From assembly GCF_055900595.2 (NCBI RefSeq), contig NZ_CM148325.1: a DNA stretch of 64,000 nt. The stretch is one strand, 5' to 3'. How positions within the stretch are numbered: position 1 is the first letter of the stretch; each line of letters starts with the position of its first letter. Shown piece by piece: positions 1,890 through 7,542 of this stretch. The notes under the pieces were generated by a model. The model had not been told where the DNA came from and searched no databases. It saw only the letters and a program-made list of their open reading frames with translations. The position numbers and the translations under genes are program-made.

Positions 1890-3206
1890 ATGTCTGTAAC
1901 ACGTATAAGAGTGAAAGAGCGCGACGCTATTATTCAGTCACTTAAGTCGGGAGTAACGCCAAGGATAGGTATTCAGCATATCCAGGTTGGCCGCGTGAAT
2001 GAGATAACCGCCCTCCATCAGGATATTGAACGGATTGCTGATGGCGGGGCAAGCTTCAGACTTATCATTGGTGAGTATGGTTCCGGCAAAACGTTCTTTT
2101 TAAGTGTTGTACGGTCTATTGCGTTAGAGAAAAAGCTGGTCACGGTCAGTGCAGACCTTTCTCCCGACAGACGTATTCACTCATCGGGAGGTCAGGCTCG
2201 TAATCTCTACTCAGAGCTTATGAAAAATATGTCCACCAGAAACAAACCAGATGGCAATGCATTACTTAGCGTTGTGGAAAGGTTTGTTACTGAGGCAAGG
2301 AAGGAAGCTGATGCGAACGGCTCCCAGGTCTCATCCGTTATTCATAAACGCCTTGCTGCTTTGTCAGATATGGTGGGTGGATATGACTTTGCGAAGGTCA
2401 TTGACGCATTCTGGCGCGGGCATGAGCAGGATAACGAAACCTTAAAATCCAATGCTATTCGCTGGTTGCGGGGCGAGTACACCACAAAAACTGATGCCCG
2501 TAATGATCTTGACGTCCGAACGATTATCTCAGACGCCTCGTTCTATGACTCTTTGAAGTTGATGAGCCTTTTTGTCCGTCAGGCAGGCTATGCCGGACTT
2601 TTAGTTAGCCTCGACGAGATGGTGAACCTCTTCAAGTTGAATAATACGCAAGCGAGAACGGCCAACTACGAACAAATTTTGCGGATCCTGAATGACTGCC
2701 TGCAAGGCTCCGCCGAAAATATTGGTTTTATCCTCGGGGGGACGCCAGAGTTTCTTTTCGATCCACGTAAGGGGCTCTACAGCTATGAAGCGCTCCAGTC
2801 GCGTCTGGCAGAAAATCGATTCGCACAGAAAGCTGGCGTGATTGACTACTCGTCTCCCACGCTACATCTTGCCAGCCTCACTCCTGAGGAACTGTATATT
2901 TTACTGAAAAATCTTCGTCATGTTTATGCTGGTGGAGATCCCGCAAATTATCTGGTGCCAGATGAGGCTCTGACCGGGTTTCTGCATCACTGCAGCAAAA
3001 CCATCGGAGATGCTTACTTTCGAACTCCCCGCAATACCATAAAAGGTTTTCTGGATATGCTGGCTGTGCTGGAACAAAACAGTACGATGAACTGGCAAGC
3101 TCTCATTGAGGGGGTGGCGATTGAAGAAGACAAGCCCAGCGATATGGGGGATGCCATTGTGGAGGAAAGTGATGACGATGATGGCCTGGCGAATTTCAGA
3201 CTATGA
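1890..3206 (+). CDS. P-loop ATPase (DUF2791/BrxD-like family), second gene of Shango-like operon
   Basis: 438 aa; Walker A GEYGSGKTFFLS; Walker B-like LLVSLDEM; GAGGG RBS upstream; stop overlaps next start (ATGA at 3203-3206). Confidence 0.7.
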   Translation: MSVTRIRVKERDAIIQSLKSGVTPRIGIQHIQVGRVNEITALHQDIERIADGGASFRLIIGEYGSGKTFFLSVVRSIALEKKLVTVSADLSPDRRIHSSGGQARNLYSELMKNMSTRNKPDGNALLSVVERFVTEARKEADANGSQVSSVIHKRLAALSDMVGGYDFAKVIDAFWRGHEQDNETLKSNAIRWLRGEYTTKTDARNDLDVRTIISDASFYDSLKLMSLFVRQAGYAGLLVSLDEMVNLFKLNNTQARTANYEQILRILNDCLQGSAENIGFILGGTPEFLFDPRKGLYSYEALQSRLAENRFAQKAGVIDYSSPTLHLASLTPEELYILLKNLRHVYAGGDPANYLVPDEALTGFLHHCSKTIGDAYFRTPRNTIKGFLDMLAVLEQNSTMNWQALIEGVAIEEDKPSDMGDAIVEESDDDDGLANFRL

Positions 3207-5401
3207 GCAGTGCCTACAATAGTCTCGATCCCCGTGTCCGTAAGTGGATTTATAAGCAGGGCTGGTCATCATTAAGGCCCTTGCAGGAGAGCTCTATTCC
3301 GGCAATTTTAGCCCGTGATCGTGATGTACTAATTAGTGCAGGTACAGCTGCGGGTAAAACAGAGGCTTTCTTTCTTCCTGCCTGTTCAGCGATTGCAGAT
3401 CTCACTGGTGGATTTGGCATTATCTATATCAGTCCGTTGAAGGCATTGATTAACGATCAGCACCGTCGTCTTGAGAGCCTGGGGGAAGCCCTGGAAATGC
3501 AAGTGACGCCCTGGCACGGGGATGTACCACAAAGCAAAAAGAAGAAAGCACGGACAAGCCCGTCAGGTATCTTACTTATCACACCTGAATCACTTGAGTC
3601 TTTGCTCATAAACTCATTGGGTTGGCTCAAACAGGCGTTTTCTTCAGTGGCATACATTGTTATTGATGAGTTCCACGCTTTTATTGGCTCAGAGCGTGGT
3701 ATACAACTGCTTTCGCTGCTTAATAGAATTGACCATGTGCTGGGACGCCAGTTAAATCCAGTTCCCCGTGTCGCGTTGAGTGCCACTCTGGGAGAGCTGG
3801 AAAAAGTGCCAGAATTATTGCGTCCGGATAAGAGATTACCTTGTGAAACGGTAACAGACAGTAATAGCACCGCTACACTACAAGTTCAGGTTAAAGGTTA
3901 TCTTGAGCGGGTGCCCGAAAAAGGGGAAGAGCTCCAGAGCTCTGCTGAACAGCTCGTCTGCGCGGATATTTTCAGGCTCTGTCGTGGCGATTCCCACCTG
4001 GTCTTTGCTAACAGTCGAAAGCGTACTGAAAGCATAGCGGCAATACTGAGCGACATGTGTGAAGCAAATGTCGTTCCTAATGAATTCTTTCCTCATCATG
4101 GCTCCCTTGCCAGGGAGTTACGTGAGGCGCTTGAAGCCCGACTGCAGAAAGGGAATTTGCCCACAACCGCTGTTTGTACAATGACGCTGGAGCTGGGTAT
4201 TGATATTGGTAAGGTGCAGTCTGTCATACAAGTGACACCTCCGCATTCTGTTTCCAGTCTGCGTCAACGCATGGGACGTTCAGGGCGGCGCGATTCCCCA
4301 TCGGTGCTGAGAATGTTAATTACTGAACCTGAACTTACCGCAACCAGCAGCATTGTGGATCATTTACGGCTGCAGTTGGTTCAGGCGATGGCAATGATCA
4401 GGTTGATGATCTCTAAGCGCTGGTTCGAGCCTGCAGATATCCGGCAGAAACATTACTCCACACTACTACACCAGATCCTGGCTATTACTGCACAATGGGG
4501 AGGTGTTCGTGCCGATCAACTCTGGTCACAACTTTGCCAGACAGGTCCGTTCCGGAATGTGGATATAAATGACTTTAAAAGTCTGCTTAAACATATGGGG
4601 ACATGTGGCCTGCTCAGTCAACTAGCCAGCGGTGAAATAGTTGTCGGGGCTGAGGGGGAGAAGCTGACTAATCACTACACGTTTTATGCCGTATTCAATA
4701 CACCTGAGGAGTTTCGCATTGTAACGGGAAACCGAACTCTTGGCACAGTGCCTGTAGACTCCCCACTTTTGCCGGAGCAGCACATCATCTTCGGCGGACG
4801 GCGCTGGAAAGTGACAGAGATCGAGGTTGAAAAAAAGGTTATCTATGTTGAGGCGACTAAAGGCGGTCAGCCACCACTATTCAGTGGTAGCGGGATGTCT
4901 GTTCATGATGTTGTTCGCCAGGAGATGCTCGCTATCTACAGGGAAAATGATTACCGTATCGCGGTAGGCAACAAGAGAGTCGATTATGCTGATGCCGCAG
5001 CCAGAAGCCTCTTTGCGGAAGGAAGTGACAACTTCCAACGCTACAATCTACACAATGACTGTTTTATTGCCAGTGGTCAGAACTGCTACGTGATCCCGTG
5101 GATGGGGGATAAAATTGTCAATACAATTACGTCCCTGCTTATACGTTGTGGCTTTAAAGCCAGTTCATTTGCAGGTGTGATAGAGGTAGAGGACTCAGGC
5201 GTTGCCTCTGTCCAGCGTGTACTTAAGAAAATGCTATTGTCGGGGTTACCTTCAGAGTTTGAGCTTGCTGCAGTTGTTCCTGACAAGTATCTGGATAAAT
5301 ATGACGAGTATTTACCAGAGACTTTGCTTGCTAAAGGGTATGGGGCACAGGCGTATGATATAGAAGGAACGTGCACCTGGCTGCAGAAACACCTTCAGTA
5401 G
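3203..5401 (+). CDS. Superfamily-2 DExH helicase (Lhr/DEAD-DEAH-like) with about 300 aa C-terminal extension, third gene of Shango-like operon
   Basis: 732 aa; motif I GTAAGKTEAF, motif II VIDEFHAF, motif III ALSATLG, motif VI QRMGRSGRRD; translationally coupled to the ATPase. Confidence 0.75.
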   Translation: MSSAYNSLDPRVRKWIYKQGWSSLRPLQESSIPAILARDRDVLISAGTAAGKTEAFFLPACSAIADLTGGFGIIYISPLKALINDQHRRLESLGEALEMQVTPWHGDVPQSKKKKARTSPSGILLITPESLESLLINSLGWLKQAFSSVAYIVIDEFHAFIGSERGIQLLSLLNRIDHVLGRQLNPVPRVALSATLGELEKVPELLRPDKRLPCETVTDSNSTATLQVQVKGYLERVPEKGEELQSSAEQLVCADIFRLCRGDSHLVFANSRKRTESIAAILSDMCEANVVPNEFFPHHGSLARELREALEARLQKGNLPTTAVCTMTLELGIDIGKVQSVIQVTPPHSVSSLRQRMGRSGRRDSPSVLRMLITEPELTATSSIVDHLRLQLVQAMAMIRLMISKRWFEPADIRQKHYSTLLHQILAITAQWGGVRADQLWSQLCQTGPFRNVDINDFKSLLKHMGTCGLLSQLASGEIVVGAEGEKLTNHYTFYAVFNTPEEFRIVTGNRTLGTVPVDSPLLPEQHIIFGGRRWKVTEIEVEKKVIYVEATKGGQPPLFSGSGMSVHDVVRQEMLAIYRENDYRIAVGNKRVDYADAAARSLFAEGSDNFQRYNLHNDCFIASGQNCYVIPWMGDKIVNTITSLLIRCGFKASSFAGVIEVEDSGVASVQRVLKKMLLSGLPSEFELAAVVPDKYLDKYDEYLPETLLAKGYGAQAYDIEGTCTWLQKHLQ

Positions 5402-5415
5402 ACTGGATATGTAGT

Positions 5416-5452
5416 CAGGGTATAAATAACTTATTTATACCCTGATTTTTTT
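5416..5452 (+). terminator. Rho-independent terminator after helicase gene
   Basis: 13-bp stem CAGGGTATAAATA/TATTTATACCCTG with 5-nt loop, followed by TTTTTTT, 15 nt downstream of the stop at 5401. Confidence 0.6.
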
Positions 5453-5578
5453 ACTTCCCGGTGGACTTACTTGGCTTTAGTCCCGGAGTGTTGCCAGGAG
5501 TATCTTTATTATCTCGTCGGCGTTGATCTGGTTTTCCTGTCGATTTAGCAATTGGTTTTGGACCAGGTTTAAGACCCA
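5451..5578 (-). CDS. Hypothetical small basic K/P-rich protein (42 aa from internal Met; the ORF track extends it to 5651)
   Basis: MGLKPGPKPIAKSTGKPDQRRRDNKDTPGNTPGLKPSKSTGK; AAGGA RBS about 9 nt upstream of the ATG at 5578; convergent with the helicase and sharing the hairpin. Coding status uncertain. Confidence 0.2.
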
Positions 5579-5882
5579 TGATAGTTATCCTTTTGAGATG
5601 TAAGAGGGAAGCCCTCAACATTGGTATATTGGATACTGAGAAATTTTTCAATGGGAGTGATAAACGGCCGAATGATTAACTCGATATTGTGATCAACGTC
5701 TGTTTTTTGCACACTGTAGACTGACTCTTGGAGCAGAAGGTTGCTCTGAGCGAGGAATGGACAGTTACACTCATCACCAACGCCAATAGCCTCATTACGC
5801 GTATAAAGCTGTATTAATCATTGGGGAACAGTTTAATGCGGGATTTTCGACTTATGGACTTGATTCAGGTGTCAAAATTAAA

Positions 5883-6899
5883 ATGAGCAGTGTAAGGACA
5901 GACAAGTTCATTAGGTATGGTTTTGCGGTTGTGGCGATAGTTGCCATACTCATTACTACTATCACAACCCCCAATCCCACACCTTATCAATATATAGTTT
6001 ACCGAATAGTTCTGGCTCTGGCTGCCGGATGTATTGGTGCAGTTCTGCCTGGTTTCCTTGAAGTAAAATTTAATGGGTGGTTAAGAGCATCTGGCGCAGT
6101 GGCGATCTTCGCTATAGTGTTTTTCATAAGCCCAGATTTGCTTCAACAAAATCCTGAATCTGCAAGTAAACCTGTACCGCCTACTGTGATTGATGCATAT
6201 GCCGTTAATAGTTCCAATCGCGACAGATACCTCGAATTATTTCGAACAGGACAGTTCGGTCAGCGGGACAAGCTGCGCATCGGTTGTGTTGAGTGGAGTG
6301 AATCATCGTGCGTGGCTGCTGGTAATTTTTTGCGATTGTTAAGCGAAGCTGGCTGGGAAATCGATTCTGACGCTGTATTCAGAATGCAACCATCCGTGCC
6401 AGTTGAGGGGGTATCGATTGTAAGCCGTGGCGATGATCTGGTCGGTTTGCCAAAAGTACCACCCCACATGGGCCGTTGGAGTCGATCAGACATTAGTTAT
6501 GAAATTTTGACAGCGGCATTTAAATTGATGGGAGTTCCGGTTTATTTTTCCAGTGACCCGACATTACAACCAGGTACTACCGGAGTGTACTTTGGACCGA
6601 AACCGAAACTGGATGCACCAGTCATGCAAAAAGATGAGAATGTGCGACGTGAGCTTCTCCGCTACGTCGGTTTGGGAATGACTATTCAGCGAGCCTGCTC
6701 TCAGCAGCCCGTCGAACTTTGTGGGGGTGAAATCTTTTCCTGGGAAACGTCGGTATCTTCGTTCCTAAGGCAGCAGAGATTCAACTCCGATGCCGTAAAC
6801 AGATGGCTTGCCTTGCCGCAGGTTAATGCGGCTTCGGCAACTGCAGACATGAAAATAAAGCTAGATTTGTTAATGTCATTTGTTCTGGGCATCGAGTAA
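5883..6899 (+). CDS. Hypothetical membrane-anchored protein: three predicted N-terminal TM helices plus about 250 aa soluble domain
   Basis: 338 aa; hydrophobic segments FAVVAIVAILITTITT, IVLALAAGCIGAVLPGFL, ASGAVAIFAIVFFI; no motif I recognise in the soluble part. Confidence 0.55.
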   Translation: MSSVRTDKFIRYGFAVVAIVAILITTITTPNPTPYQYIVYRIVLALAAGCIGAVLPGFLEVKFNGWLRASGAVAIFAIVFFISPDLLQQNPESASKPVPPTVIDAYAVNSSNRDRYLELFRTGQFGQRDKLRIGCVEWSESSCVAAGNFLRLLSEAGWEIDSDAVFRMQPSVPVEGVSIVSRGDDLVGLPKVPPHMGRWSRSDISYEILTAAFKLMGVPVYFSSDPTLQPGTTGVYFGPKPKLDAPVMQKDENVRRELLRYVGLGMTIQRACSQQPVELCGGEIFSWETSVSSFLRQQRFNSDAVNRWLALPQVNAASATADMKIKLDLLMSFVLGIE

Positions 6900-7542
6900 C
6901 TATACCTCTTGCGAGGATGATTGAGCGTCTAATGGACCAGCTTAGCCGTTAGCGCTATTTGTTTACGTAAGCCTGTGGAATCCAACTAGTGCTTCTACGA
7001 TGCGTTGTTTGGTGAAAAAAAAGTGTTGAAGCACTGGTTTTAGACAACTAAAGCCACGATTTGCTCATGCGTCGAAAATGTAGTCGTCTACTGTGTAGCA
7101 CGGAGGCGATATTCGTACGCTTACACTTGCCGATAGGCCACTGGGGAGTGTTCTTGGCACTAAGCTGCCAGGCCCGAAGGTCTGCTATGAGCGAGGGGCT
7201 GACATTCCTATTGGCATTCGGTGTGAGTTATCGGGGGCGGTCATGCGGCATACTTCCGATACAGGCGTTTCCAGCTCTGCCTGTTTCAGGGTTATATTAA
7301 TCTGCTTTAGAATTAATCGTGGCTTTAGCATCTGCACATCGTGCTGGAGAAACCTGAGTGAACTAAATCATATTCCCTTTCTTCAGCTAATCAATTGATA
7401 GTTATGCGGAAAAAGTTACTTTGCTTGTCAATAATCCATTTCACATCCGTTAATTCAATGCTATGCGTCTTCGCATTAATCTGGAAAGGTAGTAAGTGAA
7501 ATAAAAACTTAGCCAATGACTAATATCTGAGGATACTTTGTC

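What the first reader, a model, noticed from the sequence alone, without database searches (positions are those of the whole stretch)
5451..5651. Small basic K/P-rich ORF convergent with the helicase, sharing its terminator hairpin
A 42-66-aa ORF (MGLKPGPKPIAKSTGKPDQRRRDNKDTPGNTPGLKPSKSTGK) has an AAGGA RBS and ends at the hairpin that terminates the helicase transcript. It is low-complexity and highly basic, so it may be a nucleic-acid-binding peptide or a non-coding artefact.
Basis: seen in the sequence. Interest (0 to 1): 0.3.

Follow-up and report, generated by a model that had tools for sequence, protein, structure and literature searches.

The report
Widely conserved mobile 42-residue basic microprotein
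The small ORF is a real gene for a 42-amino-acid, very basic, probably unstructured protein that is kept almost unchanged in hundreds of bacterial species and travels on plasmids, integron cassettes and defence islands, yet has no described function.

Summary
The real gene is the 42-codon ATG version (window 5451-5579, minus strand), not the 66-codon TTG version.

It is not an artefact:
- The same peptide is found in at least 544 species-representative genomes, from Enterobacterales to Rhizobiales, Burkholderiales, Leptospira and Chlorobium.
- It is also in 1,424 of 72,556 plasmids and 876 of 5,426 complete E. coli genomes.
- Synonymous sites are saturated, while amino acids are 86-100% identical (pN/pS about 0.1 in frame, above 2 in the other two frames).
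- It matches nothing in Pfam, NCBIfam, PADLOC, PHROGs or the PDB.

In the window it sits tail-to-tail with sngC of a Shango defence system. The hairpin between them is a canonical terminator only for sngC.

Relatives occur without Shango: as promoterless integron cassettes, or as complete small transcription units on plasmids. The peptide is therefore autonomous.

The gammaproteobacterial copies, this one included, share three upstream features: a promoter that resembles the sigma-32 heat-shock consensus, a leader hairpin that keeps pairing through compensatory changes, and a Shine-Dalgarno site.

Function is unknown. My best guess is a stress-induced peptide that binds a universally conserved polyanionic target such as the ribosome, RNA or DNA. 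The gene itself is certain; this mechanism is a weak inference.

The parts
5451..5579 (-). Coding sequence of the 42-aa basic microprotein (ATG 5579-5577, TAA 5453-5451).
   Evidence: Translation. The identical protein is annotated as WP_001347255.1 in E. coli H6. Purifying selection. Family alignment A2.
5588..5592 (-). Shine-Dalgarno sequence AAGGA, 8 nt upstream of the ATG.
   Evidence: Sequence. An SD core is present in 79 of 83 distinct leaders of relatives.
5604..5616 (-). Leader stem-loop GAGGG-CUU-CCCUC, with a purine-rich 5' arm and a pyrimidine-rich 3' arm.
   Evidence: Folds at -9.1 kcal/mol, z = -2.7. A 4-7 bp stem with the same polarity is present in all 33 distinct gammaproteobacterial-type leaders examined, with compensatory variants such as GAGAG/CTCTC, GGGAG/CTCCC and ACGAGG/CCTCGT.
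5623..5633 (-). Promoter -10 region: TCCAATAT (5633-5626, sigma-32-like CCCCATNT), overlapping TATACC (5628-5623, sigma-70-like).
   Evidence: Sequence. Position conserved in relatives as CCCCTTAT, TCCCATAT, ACCAATAT and CCCCAAGA. Consensus taken from PMC3168786 and PMC10216364. Inferred only; no transcript data.
5646..5652 (-). Promoter -35 element ATTGAAA. It contains the TTG that the ORF listing used as the start of the 66-aa ORF.
   Evidence: CTTGAAA, CTTGATA or ATTGAAA sits at the same distance from the ATG in 51 distinct leaders.
5413..5452 (+). Stem-loop (5413-5447) plus T-run (5446-5452). It is an intrinsic terminator of sngC; on the minus strand the same hairpin follows the peptide's stop codon but has no U-tract.
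   Evidence: The hairpin position is conserved between sngC and the peptide gene in a Klebsiella plasmid, Serratia and Pectobacterium.
5684..5713 (-). Upstream border of the shared module: a degenerate small inverted repeat plus GATCACAATAT. Homology with differently placed E. coli copies ends at about 5713.
   Evidence: Role unexplained.

Best explanation
SHOWN: window 5451-5579 (-) is a genuine protein-coding gene for a 42-aa protein that is strongly basic, proline- and lysine-rich and largely unstructured. It belongs to an undescribed family that moves horizontally as a self-contained unit. It is not a dedicated part of the neighbouring Shango system.

INFERRED FROM CONSERVED ANATOMY: in the window the gene is its own transcription unit. 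This comprises a -35 ATTGAAA and a -10 TCCAATAT/TATACC that fit the sigma-32 heat-shock consensus at least as well as sigma-70, a start site predicted at the foot of a conserved leader hairpin, and an AAGGA Shine-Dalgarno site. The 3' end is formed at or near the hairpin that terminates the convergent sngC.

INFERRED, WEAK: the peptide acts in trans as an extended ligand of a target that is nearly identical in all these bacteria. Given its +8 charge, that target is most likely a polyanion: ribosomal or other RNA, or DNA. The peptide would modulate that machine under heat or proteotoxic stress, or under infection stress.

The confidence of 0.4 applies to the whole statement including the weak mechanistic step. 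The SHOWN part alone I put above 0.9.
For: Coding and selection:
- pN/pS is 0.106 in frame versus 2.35 and 2.86 out of frame. Synonymous sites are saturated (pS 0.54-1.0) against relatives from other orders, while pN is at most 0.13.
- The two internal GLKP..KSTGK repeats differ only at third codon positions, 9 of 9 codons (sequence).
- The start is ATG in 82 of 83 distinct leaders, and 79 of 83 have an SD core.

Breadth:
- 340 clusters at 90% identity.
- 1,424 plasmids and 876 of 5,426 complete E. coli genomes.

Stand-alone family:
- In a profile search of 1.84 billion representatives, all of the best 150 matches are 33-164 aa, and there are no multidomain hosts.
- Shango is the only recurrent neighbour system besides one MkoC-like helicase. 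It is found in only 22 of 119 loci, all Enterobacterales.
- In other lineages the gene is a promoterless cassette flanked by attC-like hairpins next to an integrase.
- On the small plasmid pCKO2 it is a complete unit with TTGATA-17-TATATC, the leader hairpin, an SD and a rho-independent terminator.

Promoter:
- 39 of 51 distinct gamma-type leaders score at least 11 of 14 against CTTGAAA-N12-15-CCCCATNT, versus 1.4% of shuffles (consensus).

Leader hairpin:
- Present in 33 of 33 distinct leaders, with compensatory changes.

Physical character:
- pI 10.8, net charge +8, GRAVY -1.64.
- AlphaFold gives mostly coil with one short helix at QRRRD, mean pLDDT 73.

Not a Shango part:
- Shango is defined as three genes, and a three-gene Pseudomonas aeruginosa PA14 clone expressed in PAO1 protects against phages.
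Against: - There is no expression data of any kind for this gene. I found no literature on it: peptide strings and WP accessions return nothing.
- The sigma-32 reading is weak for the window copy alone. It scores 11 of 14, and 15 sites score that well on the two strands of the 64-kb window. The leaders are related by descent, so they are not independent. A sigma-70 reading (TTGAAA-17-TATACC, 9 of 12) is also possible.
- No known nucleic-acid-binding motif is present: no AT-hook GRP core and no Pfam hit even at E = 10.
- Cassette-type relatives lack both the promoter and the leader hairpin, so these elements are not tied to the peptide's function.
- Strict position-specific conservation would fit a protein target just as well as an RNA target.
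Confidence: 0.4

Rival explanations
1. The peptide is a modulator of a conserved protein machine rather than of nucleic acid. It could be, for example, a chaperone or protease ligand (DnaK, FtsH, Lon, Clp) that tunes the heat-shock response for the benefit of the mobile element, in the way phage lambda CIII (a peptide of about 54 aa) inhibits FtsH and stabilises sigma-32. The lambda CIII comparison rests on my own knowledge.
For: - Sigma-32-like promoter.
- Position-specific conservation along the whole length, typical of an extended peptide-protein interface.
- A diverged paralogue lies beside the clpK-htpX-psiE heat-resistance locus on Klebsiella IncFIB plasmids.
Against: - No similarity to CIII or to any known ligand.
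- Only 5 hydrophobic residues, which is poor for a DnaK-type site.
- The paralogue's position next to the heat-resistance locus may be coincidental, since an ISNCY transposase lies between them.
Confidence: 0.15
2. The peptide is a growth-inhibiting effector of a minimal addiction or abortive-infection module. It would be kept silent until stress or infection, which would explain its persistence as a tiny selfish cassette on integrons, plasmids and defence islands.
For: - It is found where toxin-antitoxin and defence genes accumulate: next to Shango and to an MkoC-like helicase, in integron arrays, and divergent from DUF6290-RelE/ParE on pCKO2 and pZF2-7kb.
- It is almost absent from phage genomes: 1 of 50,697.
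Against: - No hydrophobic segment like those of type I toxins.
- The roughly 300-bp cassette form has no room for an antitoxin gene and no conserved partner.
- The ORF is intact in nearly all copies rather than frequently inactivated.
- Cassette copies would be expressed constitutively from the integron promoter.
Confidence: 0.12
3. The peptide is an accessory or regulator of Shango: a fourth gene, or a convergent transcript that tunes sngC.
For: - Tail-to-tail arrangement with sngC, 50-71 nt apart, in E. coli, Klebsiella plasmids, Pectobacterium, Serratia, Citrobacter, Buttiauxella, Kluyvera, Dryocola and Ewingella.
- The two genes share a hairpin.
Against: - These Shango loci form one clade (SngC 85-89% identical), so the linkage can be hitch-hiking.
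- 97 of 119 loci have no Shango within 6 kb.
- In E. coli HS13-1 the peptide gene persists where only a 93-nt helicase remnant is left.
- The peptide has no PADLOC model.
- Three-gene Shango is active.
Confidence: 0.1
4. The ORF is the 3' part of a longer gene, as in NCBI's 107-aa models WP_001564033.1 and WP_015953064.1, or in the 66-aa TTG ORF.
For: PGAP annotates a 107-aa GTG-initiated protein over the homologous region in many E. coli genomes.
Against: - The extension is thrown out of frame in the window by a 1-nt indel.
- Its few differences between window and ESY002 are mostly non-synonymous.
- It is unrelated in H6 and in all other lineages, whereas the Met is universal.
- It covers the conserved promoter, leader hairpin and SD.
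Confidence: 0.02
5. There is no protein. The conservation belongs to an RNA or DNA element (terminator, attC-like site), or the ORF is a chance one.
For: The ORF is short and adjoins a strong hairpin. PGAP leaves it unannotated in window-type genomes.
Against: - Variation is concentrated at third codon positions (entropy 49 versus 9 and 7), and pN/pS is 0.1 only in this frame.
- No Rfam match.
- Flanks are unrelated while the peptide is identical.
Confidence: 0.01

Closest known systems
Small basic ribosome-associated stress proteins of E. coli (Sra/bS22, RMF); own knowledge
   Same: Size of 45-55 aa, strongly basic and hydrophilic, little predicted structure, stress-linked expression. Conservation is at a level otherwise typical of ribosomal peptides.
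   Different: No sequence similarity was detected to any Pfam, NCBIfam or PDB entry. Those proteins are chromosomal core genes, whereas this one is mobile. Ribosome binding was not tested.
Integron gene cassettes of unknown function
   Same: In Acidovorax, Janthinobacterium, Paucibacter, Comamonas and Chlorobium relatives the gene is a promoterless unit of about 300 bp. It starts at GTTAGA(A/C)GG and is followed by an attC-like hairpin, and in L012 it lies in an array beside a tyrosine integrase.
   Different: The window copy has no attC-like site on either side, has its own promoter and leader hairpin, and lies in a tRNA-Arg island.
Shango anti-phage system (SngA TerB, SngB ATPase, SngC helicase)
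   Same: It is the immediate neighbour. Window 321-5401 matches SngA, SngB and SngC at E = 2.5e-65, 1.3e-187 and 8e-278. The convergent arrangement recurs in Enterobacterales.
   Different: The peptide is not part of the defined three-gene system, and most of its relatives lie away from any Shango.
Arginine-rich-motif peptides (lambda N, BIV Tat) and AT-hook or SPKK minor-groove arms; own knowledge
   Same: A disordered basic peptide with a central RRR cluster (QRRRDNK) flanked by two Lys/Pro arms. The gene's own leader carries a short stem-loop.
   Different: No GRP core and no homology. The leader loop sequence is not conserved (CUU, AAUAA, GCUUU). Binding is untested.
Lambda CIII-type small regulators of the heat-shock response encoded by mobile elements; own knowledge
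   Same: A peptide of about 50 aa carried by a mobile element, with a possible link to sigma-32.
   Different: CIII works through an amphipathic helix, whereas this peptide is proline-rich coil. No similarity.

Membership tests
Shango defence system | Protein matches an SngA, SngB or SngC model. | tested here: not met
   The PADLOC scan of the peptide gives 0 families, while the three upstream genes match SngA/B/C.
Shango defence system | Obligate co-occurrence with the other components. | tested here: not met
   SngC lies within 6 kb in 22 of 119 loci, all Enterobacterales. The peptide gene persists next to a helicase remnant in HS13-1.
Shango defence system | Required for anti-phage activity. 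| not testable with these tools
   The literature reports activity of a three-gene Pseudomonas aeruginosa PA14 clone expressed in PAO1. The E. coli system with and without the peptide has not been tested.
Integron gene cassette | attC recombination site (imperfect inverted repeat with ..TAAC / GTTA.. ends) at the 3' end. | tested here: not met
   My attC-like scan found such sites only in L011-L013, L016, L090 and L103, not in the window. Window flanks are the sngC terminator and a promoter. The scan was narrow, tuned to one attC type.
Integron gene cassette | Lies in an array next to an integron integrase. | tested here: not met
   In the window the nearest integrase is the tRNA-Arg island integrase, several kb away. 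The feature is met for relative L012.
Sigma-32 (RpoH) promoter | CTTGAAA, 13-15 bp, CCCCAT(NT) upstream of the transcript start. | tested here: inconclusive
   The window has ATTGAAA-12-TCCAATAT, scoring 11 of 14. Relatives reach 12 of 14, and 39 of 51 leaders score at least 11 versus 1.4% of shuffles. However, there are 15 equally good sites on the two strands of the 64-kb window, and there are no transcript data.
Intrinsic (rho-independent) terminator for the peptide transcript | GC-containing stem followed by a U-tract on the transcribed strand. | tested here: not met
   The stem is present on both strands, but the U-tract exists only on the + strand (sngC). The minus-strand RNA continues ACUACAUAUCC.
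Type I toxin or small membrane toxin | Hydrophobic transmembrane segment. | tested here: not met
   GRAVY -1.64, with 5 hydrophobic residues scattered along the peptide.
Type II toxin-antitoxin pair | Conserved adjacent partner gene. | tested here: not met
   No shared neighbour exists outside Shango and the MkoC-like helicase. DUF6290-RelE/ParE lies divergent on two small plasmids only.
AT-hook DNA-binding motif | Arg-Gly-Arg-Pro core flanked by basic residues. | tested here: not met
   The sequence has KPGPKP and no GRP.
Hydrophilins (Gly above 6%, high hydrophilicity); definition from own knowledge | Composition criteria. | tested here: met
   Gly is 6 of 42 (14%) and GRAVY is -1.64. This is a compositional class, not a homology family, and it does not explain the strict positional conservation.

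The most novel reading that the evidence does not exclude
The peptide is the first member of a new class of mobile-element-borne microproteins that dock, as an extended chain, on a universally conserved machine.

The most interesting version is that it docks on the 30S subunit at or near the Shine-Dalgarno:anti-Shine-Dalgarno helix. In that case the GAGG/CCUC hairpin kept in the gene's own leader would be a mimic of that helix, used for autoregulation.

The peptide would reprogram or pause translation when sigma-32 is activated by heat, proteotoxic stress or phage infection. That would explain three things: near-identity across phyla, independence from any partner gene, and residence in defence islands, plasmids and integrons but almost never in phages.
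Probability: 0.12. Interest if true: 0.8.

Novelty: new member of a known kind. Interest (0 to 1): 0.5.

Why it matters
Small proteins are systematically missed or mis-called. This gene is unannotated in the window-type genomes, over-extended to 107 aa in several hundred E. coli genomes, and labelled "hypothetical" elsewhere.

It is nevertheless one of the more widely spread and more tightly conserved accessory genes I could trace. It occurs in at least 544 species, about 2% of sequenced plasmids (about 1,000 of them Klebsiella plasmids) and 16% of complete E. coli genomes.

Conservation of this kind in a 42-residue disordered peptide implies a precise interaction with something common to very different bacteria. 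Identifying that target would probably reveal a new way in which mobile elements manipulate a core process.

The gene is small, autonomous and easy to test. It also cautions against counting it as part of Shango or of the other defence systems it flanks.

I filed it as a "new member of a known kind" only in the broad sense of a small protein carried by a mobile element. The family itself matches nothing described.

Tried and rejected
Family and structure searches:
- Pfam, NCBIfam, PADLOC and PHROGs scans of the peptide, including all 88 alignment members against Pfam at E up to 10, gave nothing. The only hit was a PHROG of unknown function at E = 0.1.
- The PDB profile search gave only a chance match at E = 5.8.
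- The profile search of 1.84 billion representatives, done to find a larger protein carrying this segment as a domain, found none among the best 150.
- AlphaFold gave mostly coil, so I did not run fold searches because they would be meaningless.
- Rfam scans of the window region and of four relatives found nothing at the locus.

Literature:
- Searches by peptide strings, by WP accessions and in the supplements of an Enterobacteriaceae microproteome survey gave nothing.

Neighbour analysis:
- Clustering of neighbours to find a partner gene produced only Shango and an MkoC-like helicase, both lineage-restricted.
- A divergent 61-aa ORF in the Vibrionaceae module looked like a partner, but it is decaying, with stops and frameshifts in many copies, and is absent elsewhere.
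- The 338-aa gene next to the peptide in the window and the 350-aa gene in the H6 island are unrelated.

Other ideas dropped:
- My first two attC detectors were too strict and found nothing. The third finds only one attC type, so the share of cassette-type copies is not quantified.
- A LexA-box reading of the alphaproteobacterial upstream region does not fit either the gamma or the alpha consensus.
- I considered an RNA thermometer or SD-sequestering role for the leader hairpin. The 3' arm pairs only weakly with the SD in the window and not at all in relatives (by inspection).
Full report
**1. The observation**

The window is Escherichia coli. It is 100% identical to strains FY10 and 13TMH22 over 3000-8000.

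The region is a genomic island inserted at a tRNA-Arg gene next to yfdC, with a tyrosine integrase.

Upstream of the finding, on the + strand, lie three genes:
- a TerB-domain gene that runs off the window start,
- a BrxC/D-like ATPase (1890-3206),
- a DEAD helicase (3203-5401).

PADLOC models identify these as SngA, SngB and SngC of the Shango anti-phage system, at E = 2.5e-65, 1.3e-187 and 8e-278.

The ORF of the finding is listed at 5451..5651 on the minus strand, 66 aa from a TTG. Its translation contains the quoted peptide from the ATG at 5579. AAGGA lies 8 nt before that ATG.

Twelve nucleotides after the sngC stop codon begins a 16-pair stem-loop (5413-5447), followed by a T-run (5446-5452) that overlaps the peptide's stop codon. 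The scan calls it a terminator on the + strand only.

The hairpin is stable on both strands, at -19.4 and -17.5 kcal/mol. On the peptide's strand, however, it is followed by ACUACAUAUCC, not by a U-tract.

So the description is correct, with two amendments. The 66-aa form has no support. The hairpin is a canonical terminator only for sngC.

**2. Is it a gene?**

ORFs of this size are everywhere: there are 118 of at least 30 aa in the first 12 kb. The ORF alone therefore proves nothing.

*The decisive comparison.* E. coli strain H6 carries a copy in a different setting. It encodes the identical 42 residues but differs from the window at 16 synonymous and 0 non-synonymous sites in the first 38 codons. 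The DNA upstream of its Shine-Dalgarno site is unrelated.

*Across 96 distinct DNA versions collected from 122 loci:*
- Summed column entropy is 9.4, 7.4 and 49.2 at codon positions 1, 2 and 3.
- pN/pS over all pairs is 0.106 in this frame, against 2.35 and 2.86 in the other two frames.
- Against relatives from other orders, synonymous sites are saturated (pS 0.54-1.0) while pN stays at or below 0.13.

*Within the window copy itself.* The two halves of an internal repeat (GLKP..KSTGK, twice) encode the same nine residues with nine different third bases.

*Start and length.* The start is ATG in 82 of 83 distinct leaders. A Shine-Dalgarno core is present in 79 of 83. Products are 39-47 aa in nearly all copies.

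*The 107-aa PGAP model.* NCBI's pipeline annotates a GTG-extended 107-aa protein over the homologous place in many E. coli genomes. That extension is out of frame in the window because of a 1-nt indel. It is also unrelated in every other lineage, so it is an over-extension.

**3. The family**

The consensus is MxLKPGPKPIAKSTGKPDQRRRDNKxTPGNTPxLKPSKSxxK, with 9 invariant and 20 nearly invariant positions. Only the last few residues vary, forming a Lys-rich tail.

*Distribution:*
- A search of 5.8 billion clustered proteins returns 340 clusters. All are short, none has a Pfam domain, and all are named "hypothetical".
The hosts include Enterobacterales, Vibrionales, Aeromonas, Shewanella, Psychrobacter, Rhizobiales, Rhodobacterales, Sphingomonadales, Burkholderiales, Luteimonas and Leptospira, at 86-100% identity. 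Chlorobium appears.
- It is in 1,424 of 72,556 plasmid records, 1,009 of them Klebsiella.
- It is in 876 of 5,426 complete E. coli genomes.
- It is in only 1 of 50,697 phage records and in 22 IMG/VR contigs. One of the two IMG/VR contigs I examined places it beside an integrase at the edge of an integrated element.

*No known relatives:*
- A profile search of 1.84 billion representatives finds 237 matches. The best 150 are all 33-164 aa, so the peptide is not a domain of anything larger.
- Pfam, NCBIfam, PADLOC, PHROGs and PDB sequence searches give nothing.

*Physical character:*
- AlphaFold predicts coil with one short helix over QRRRD, at mean pLDDT 73.
- The peptide has pI 10.8, net charge +8, GRAVY -1.64, no aromatic residues and no cysteine.

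**4. Contexts**

I clustered all ORFs within 6 kb in 119 loci. This yields only two recurrent neighbours.

*Neighbour 1: Shango.*
- It is present in 22 loci, all Enterobacterales.
- In most of them the peptide gene lies tail-to-tail with sngC at 50-71 nt, exactly as in the window. These include Klebsiella IncF plasmids.
- These SngC proteins are 85-89% identical to the window's, so this is one mobile clade.

*Neighbour 2: a 1,210-aa MkoC-like helicase.* It lies directly upstream on the same strand in a second enterobacterial arrangement.

*Elsewhere the gene stands alone:*
- In Acidovorax and other Burkholderiales, and in Chlorobium, it is a promoterless unit. It begins at GTTAGA(A/C)GG and is followed by an attC-like hairpin. 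In L012 it lies in an array next to a tyrosine integrase, so it is an integron cassette.
- In Vibrionaceae, Shewanella, Aliidiomarina, Zobellella and Dickeya it lies in a discrete module of about 600 bp with sharp borders. Decayed extra copies occur nearby.
- On metagenomic conjugative elements it ends an operon of unknown genes, convergent with umuDC.
- On the 5.6-kb plasmid pCKO2 it is a complete unit with promoter, leader hairpin, SD and a canonical terminator. It lies divergent from a DUF6290-RelE/ParE pair. The same pairing occurs on pZF2-7kb.

Shango is defined and active as three genes. In E. coli HS13-1 the peptide gene survives beside a 93-nt helicase remnant. I therefore conclude that the peptide is autonomous and that its link to Shango is most likely hitch-hiking.

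**5. Anatomy of the window copy**

All gammaproteobacterial-type leaders share the same layout.

*Promoter.*
- In the window the -35 element is ATTGAAA (5652-5646). Twelve nucleotides further on is TCCAATAT (5633-5626), which overlaps TATACC.
- This can be read as a mediocre sigma-70 promoter: TTGAAA-17-TATACC, lacking the final T.
- The conserved C-rich run before ATAT resembles the sigma-32 consensus CTTGAAA-13/15-CCCCAT quoted in PMC3168786 and PMC10216364. Examples are CCCCTTAT in the H6 type, TCCCATAT in Pectobacterium, ACCAATAT on plasmids and CCCCAAGA in Shewanella and Zobellella.
- 39 of 51 distinct leaders score at least 11 of 14, against 1.4% of shuffles.
- The window site alone (11 of 14) is not remarkable: 15 equally good sites occur on the two strands of the 64-kb window. 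The leaders also share ancestry. I therefore treat heat-shock control as a lead, not a result.

*Leader hairpin.*
- About 6-8 nt after the -10 begins a stem-loop: GAGGG-CUU-CCCUC, 5616-5604, at -9.1 kcal/mol.
- A 4-7 bp stem at this place is present in all 33 distinct leaders examined. The loops differ and the changes are compensatory (GAGAG/CTCTC, GGGAG/CTCCC, ACGAGG/CCTCGT, GTGAGG/CCTCAT).
- The 5' arm is always purine-rich and the 3' arm always pyrimidine-rich.
- Its position fits a 5'-terminal stabilising hairpin. The fixed polarity, SD-like paired with anti-SD-like, is unexplained.

*What this does not show.* Cassette-type relatives have neither the promoter nor the hairpin. These elements therefore serve expression, not the peptide's activity.

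**6. What it does**

Nothing here shows the function. The constraints are as follows:
- It is a 42-residue disordered chain conserved position by position from Enterobacterales to Leptospira and Chlorobium.
- It has no partner gene.
- It carries a high positive charge.
- It resides on plasmids, integrons and islands but almost never in phages.
- In one lineage its promoter looks heat-shock-like.

The simplest reading is an extended ligand of a target that is itself almost invariant among bacteria. Given the charge, that target would be a polyanion: ribosomal or other RNA, or DNA. I put this at about 0.4 as a whole. The parts "real, translated, autonomous, mobile gene" stand at above 0.9.

*Rivals:*
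- A protein target such as a chaperone or protease of the heat-shock circuit (0.15). A diverged paralogue lies beside the clpK-htpX-psiE heat-resistance locus.
- A growth-arresting effector of a minimal addiction or abortive-infection module (0.12).
- A Shango accessory (0.10).
- Part of a longer gene (0.02).
- No protein at all (0.01).

**7. Comparison and novelty**

In size, charge and stress link, the peptide resembles small ribosome-associated proteins such as Sra and RMF. In composition it meets the hydrophilin criteria. It shares no detectable sequence with any of them, and these comparisons rest on my own knowledge, not on a test.

It is a member of the integron-cassette world in some lineages but not in the window. 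It fails the membership tests for Shango, type I toxins, type II pairs and AT-hooks.

The sequences are already in the databases as hypothetical proteins, but I found no description of the family. I file it as a new member of a broad known kind, small accessory proteins of mobile elements. The real possibility remains that the mechanism, once found, will be new.

Noticed in passing
L003:6048-6371 (-), L004:6049-6372 (-); homologous to window 5451-5713: NCBI's pipeline annotates a 107-aa GTG-initiated hypothetical protein (WP_001564033.1, WP_015953064.1) over the 42-aa gene in the ibrAB-linked E. coli islands. The extension covers the promoter, leader hairpin and SD, is out of frame in the window, and is not conserved. 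In window-type genomes the gene is not annotated at all.
   Followed up: yes
window 5883-6899 (+): A 338-aa protein with hydrophobic N-terminal segments is transcribed away from the peptide gene. It has a strong match to phrog_23803 of unknown function (E = 1.8e-169) and no Pfam, NCBIfam or PADLOC hit. It is unrelated to the 350-aa gene at the equivalent place in strain H6.
   Followed up: partly
window 7543-9903 (+): A 786-aa protein with an HsdR N-terminal (restriction-endonuclease-like) domain and a weak AAA match. It is uncharacterised and sits in the same island, so it may be a single-gene defence candidate.
   Followed up: no
L005:6344-9973 (-), L024:2154-5786 (+): In a second enterobacterial arrangement the peptide gene follows, on the same strand, a 1,210-aa helicase matching the Mokosh MkoC model (E = 5e-63). 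This two-gene block lies near Shango, separated from it by a GNAT gene or a gene of unknown function.
   Followed up: partly
L049:5596-6190 and the same span in L050-L062, L073, L081, L093, L107: A discrete module of about 600 bp (-405 to +190 around the ATG) has sharp borders (TTATTCCCACTCGAATATCAA... on the left) and is shared by Vibrio, Photobacterium, Salinivibrio, Pseudoalteromonas, Shewanella, Aliidiomarina, Zobellella and Dickeya in different surroundings. It also holds a divergent 61-aa ORF that is decaying, with stops and frameshifts. L054 has two further decayed copies.
   Followed up: partly
L069:5600-6000 and alignment A3: In Rhizobiales, Sphingomonadales and Achromobacter, about 450 nt upstream of the cassette are conserved without an intact ORF. 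The reverse strand starts like a short XRE-type regulator (MDEVSERLLSARIGVS...) and then breaks off.
   Followed up: partly
window 5684-5712 (-); L005, L010, L024 at the equivalent place: A small inverted repeat followed by GCTCACAnAAT lies about 95-120 nt upstream of the ATG. It is perfect in some relatives, with compensatory arms (ATGTCA-N5-TGACAT; TGTAC-N6-GTACA), and degenerate in the window. Homology between differently placed copies ends exactly here, and a similar hairpin lies downstream of the gene in L005 and L024. It may be a module border.
   Followed up: partly
L134:5001-5132 (+): A diverged paralogue (MGIKPGPKPIAESTGKEDKRRRVTPENKPKHPGLKEHDHKKGE, WP_004218042.1) on Klebsiella IncFIB plasmids keeps only the N-terminal half of the motif. 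It lies between an ISNCY transposase and the htpX-psiE-clpK heat-resistance genes.
   Followed up: partly
L131 (pCKO2) 2296-3061; L132 (pZF2-7kb) 5254-6041: On two unrelated small plasmids the peptide gene is divergent from a DUF6290-RelE/ParE toxin-antitoxin operon, 160-190 nt away. In Chlorobium a BrnA antitoxin gene follows it. This may be coincidence or a shared cassette history.
   Followed up: no
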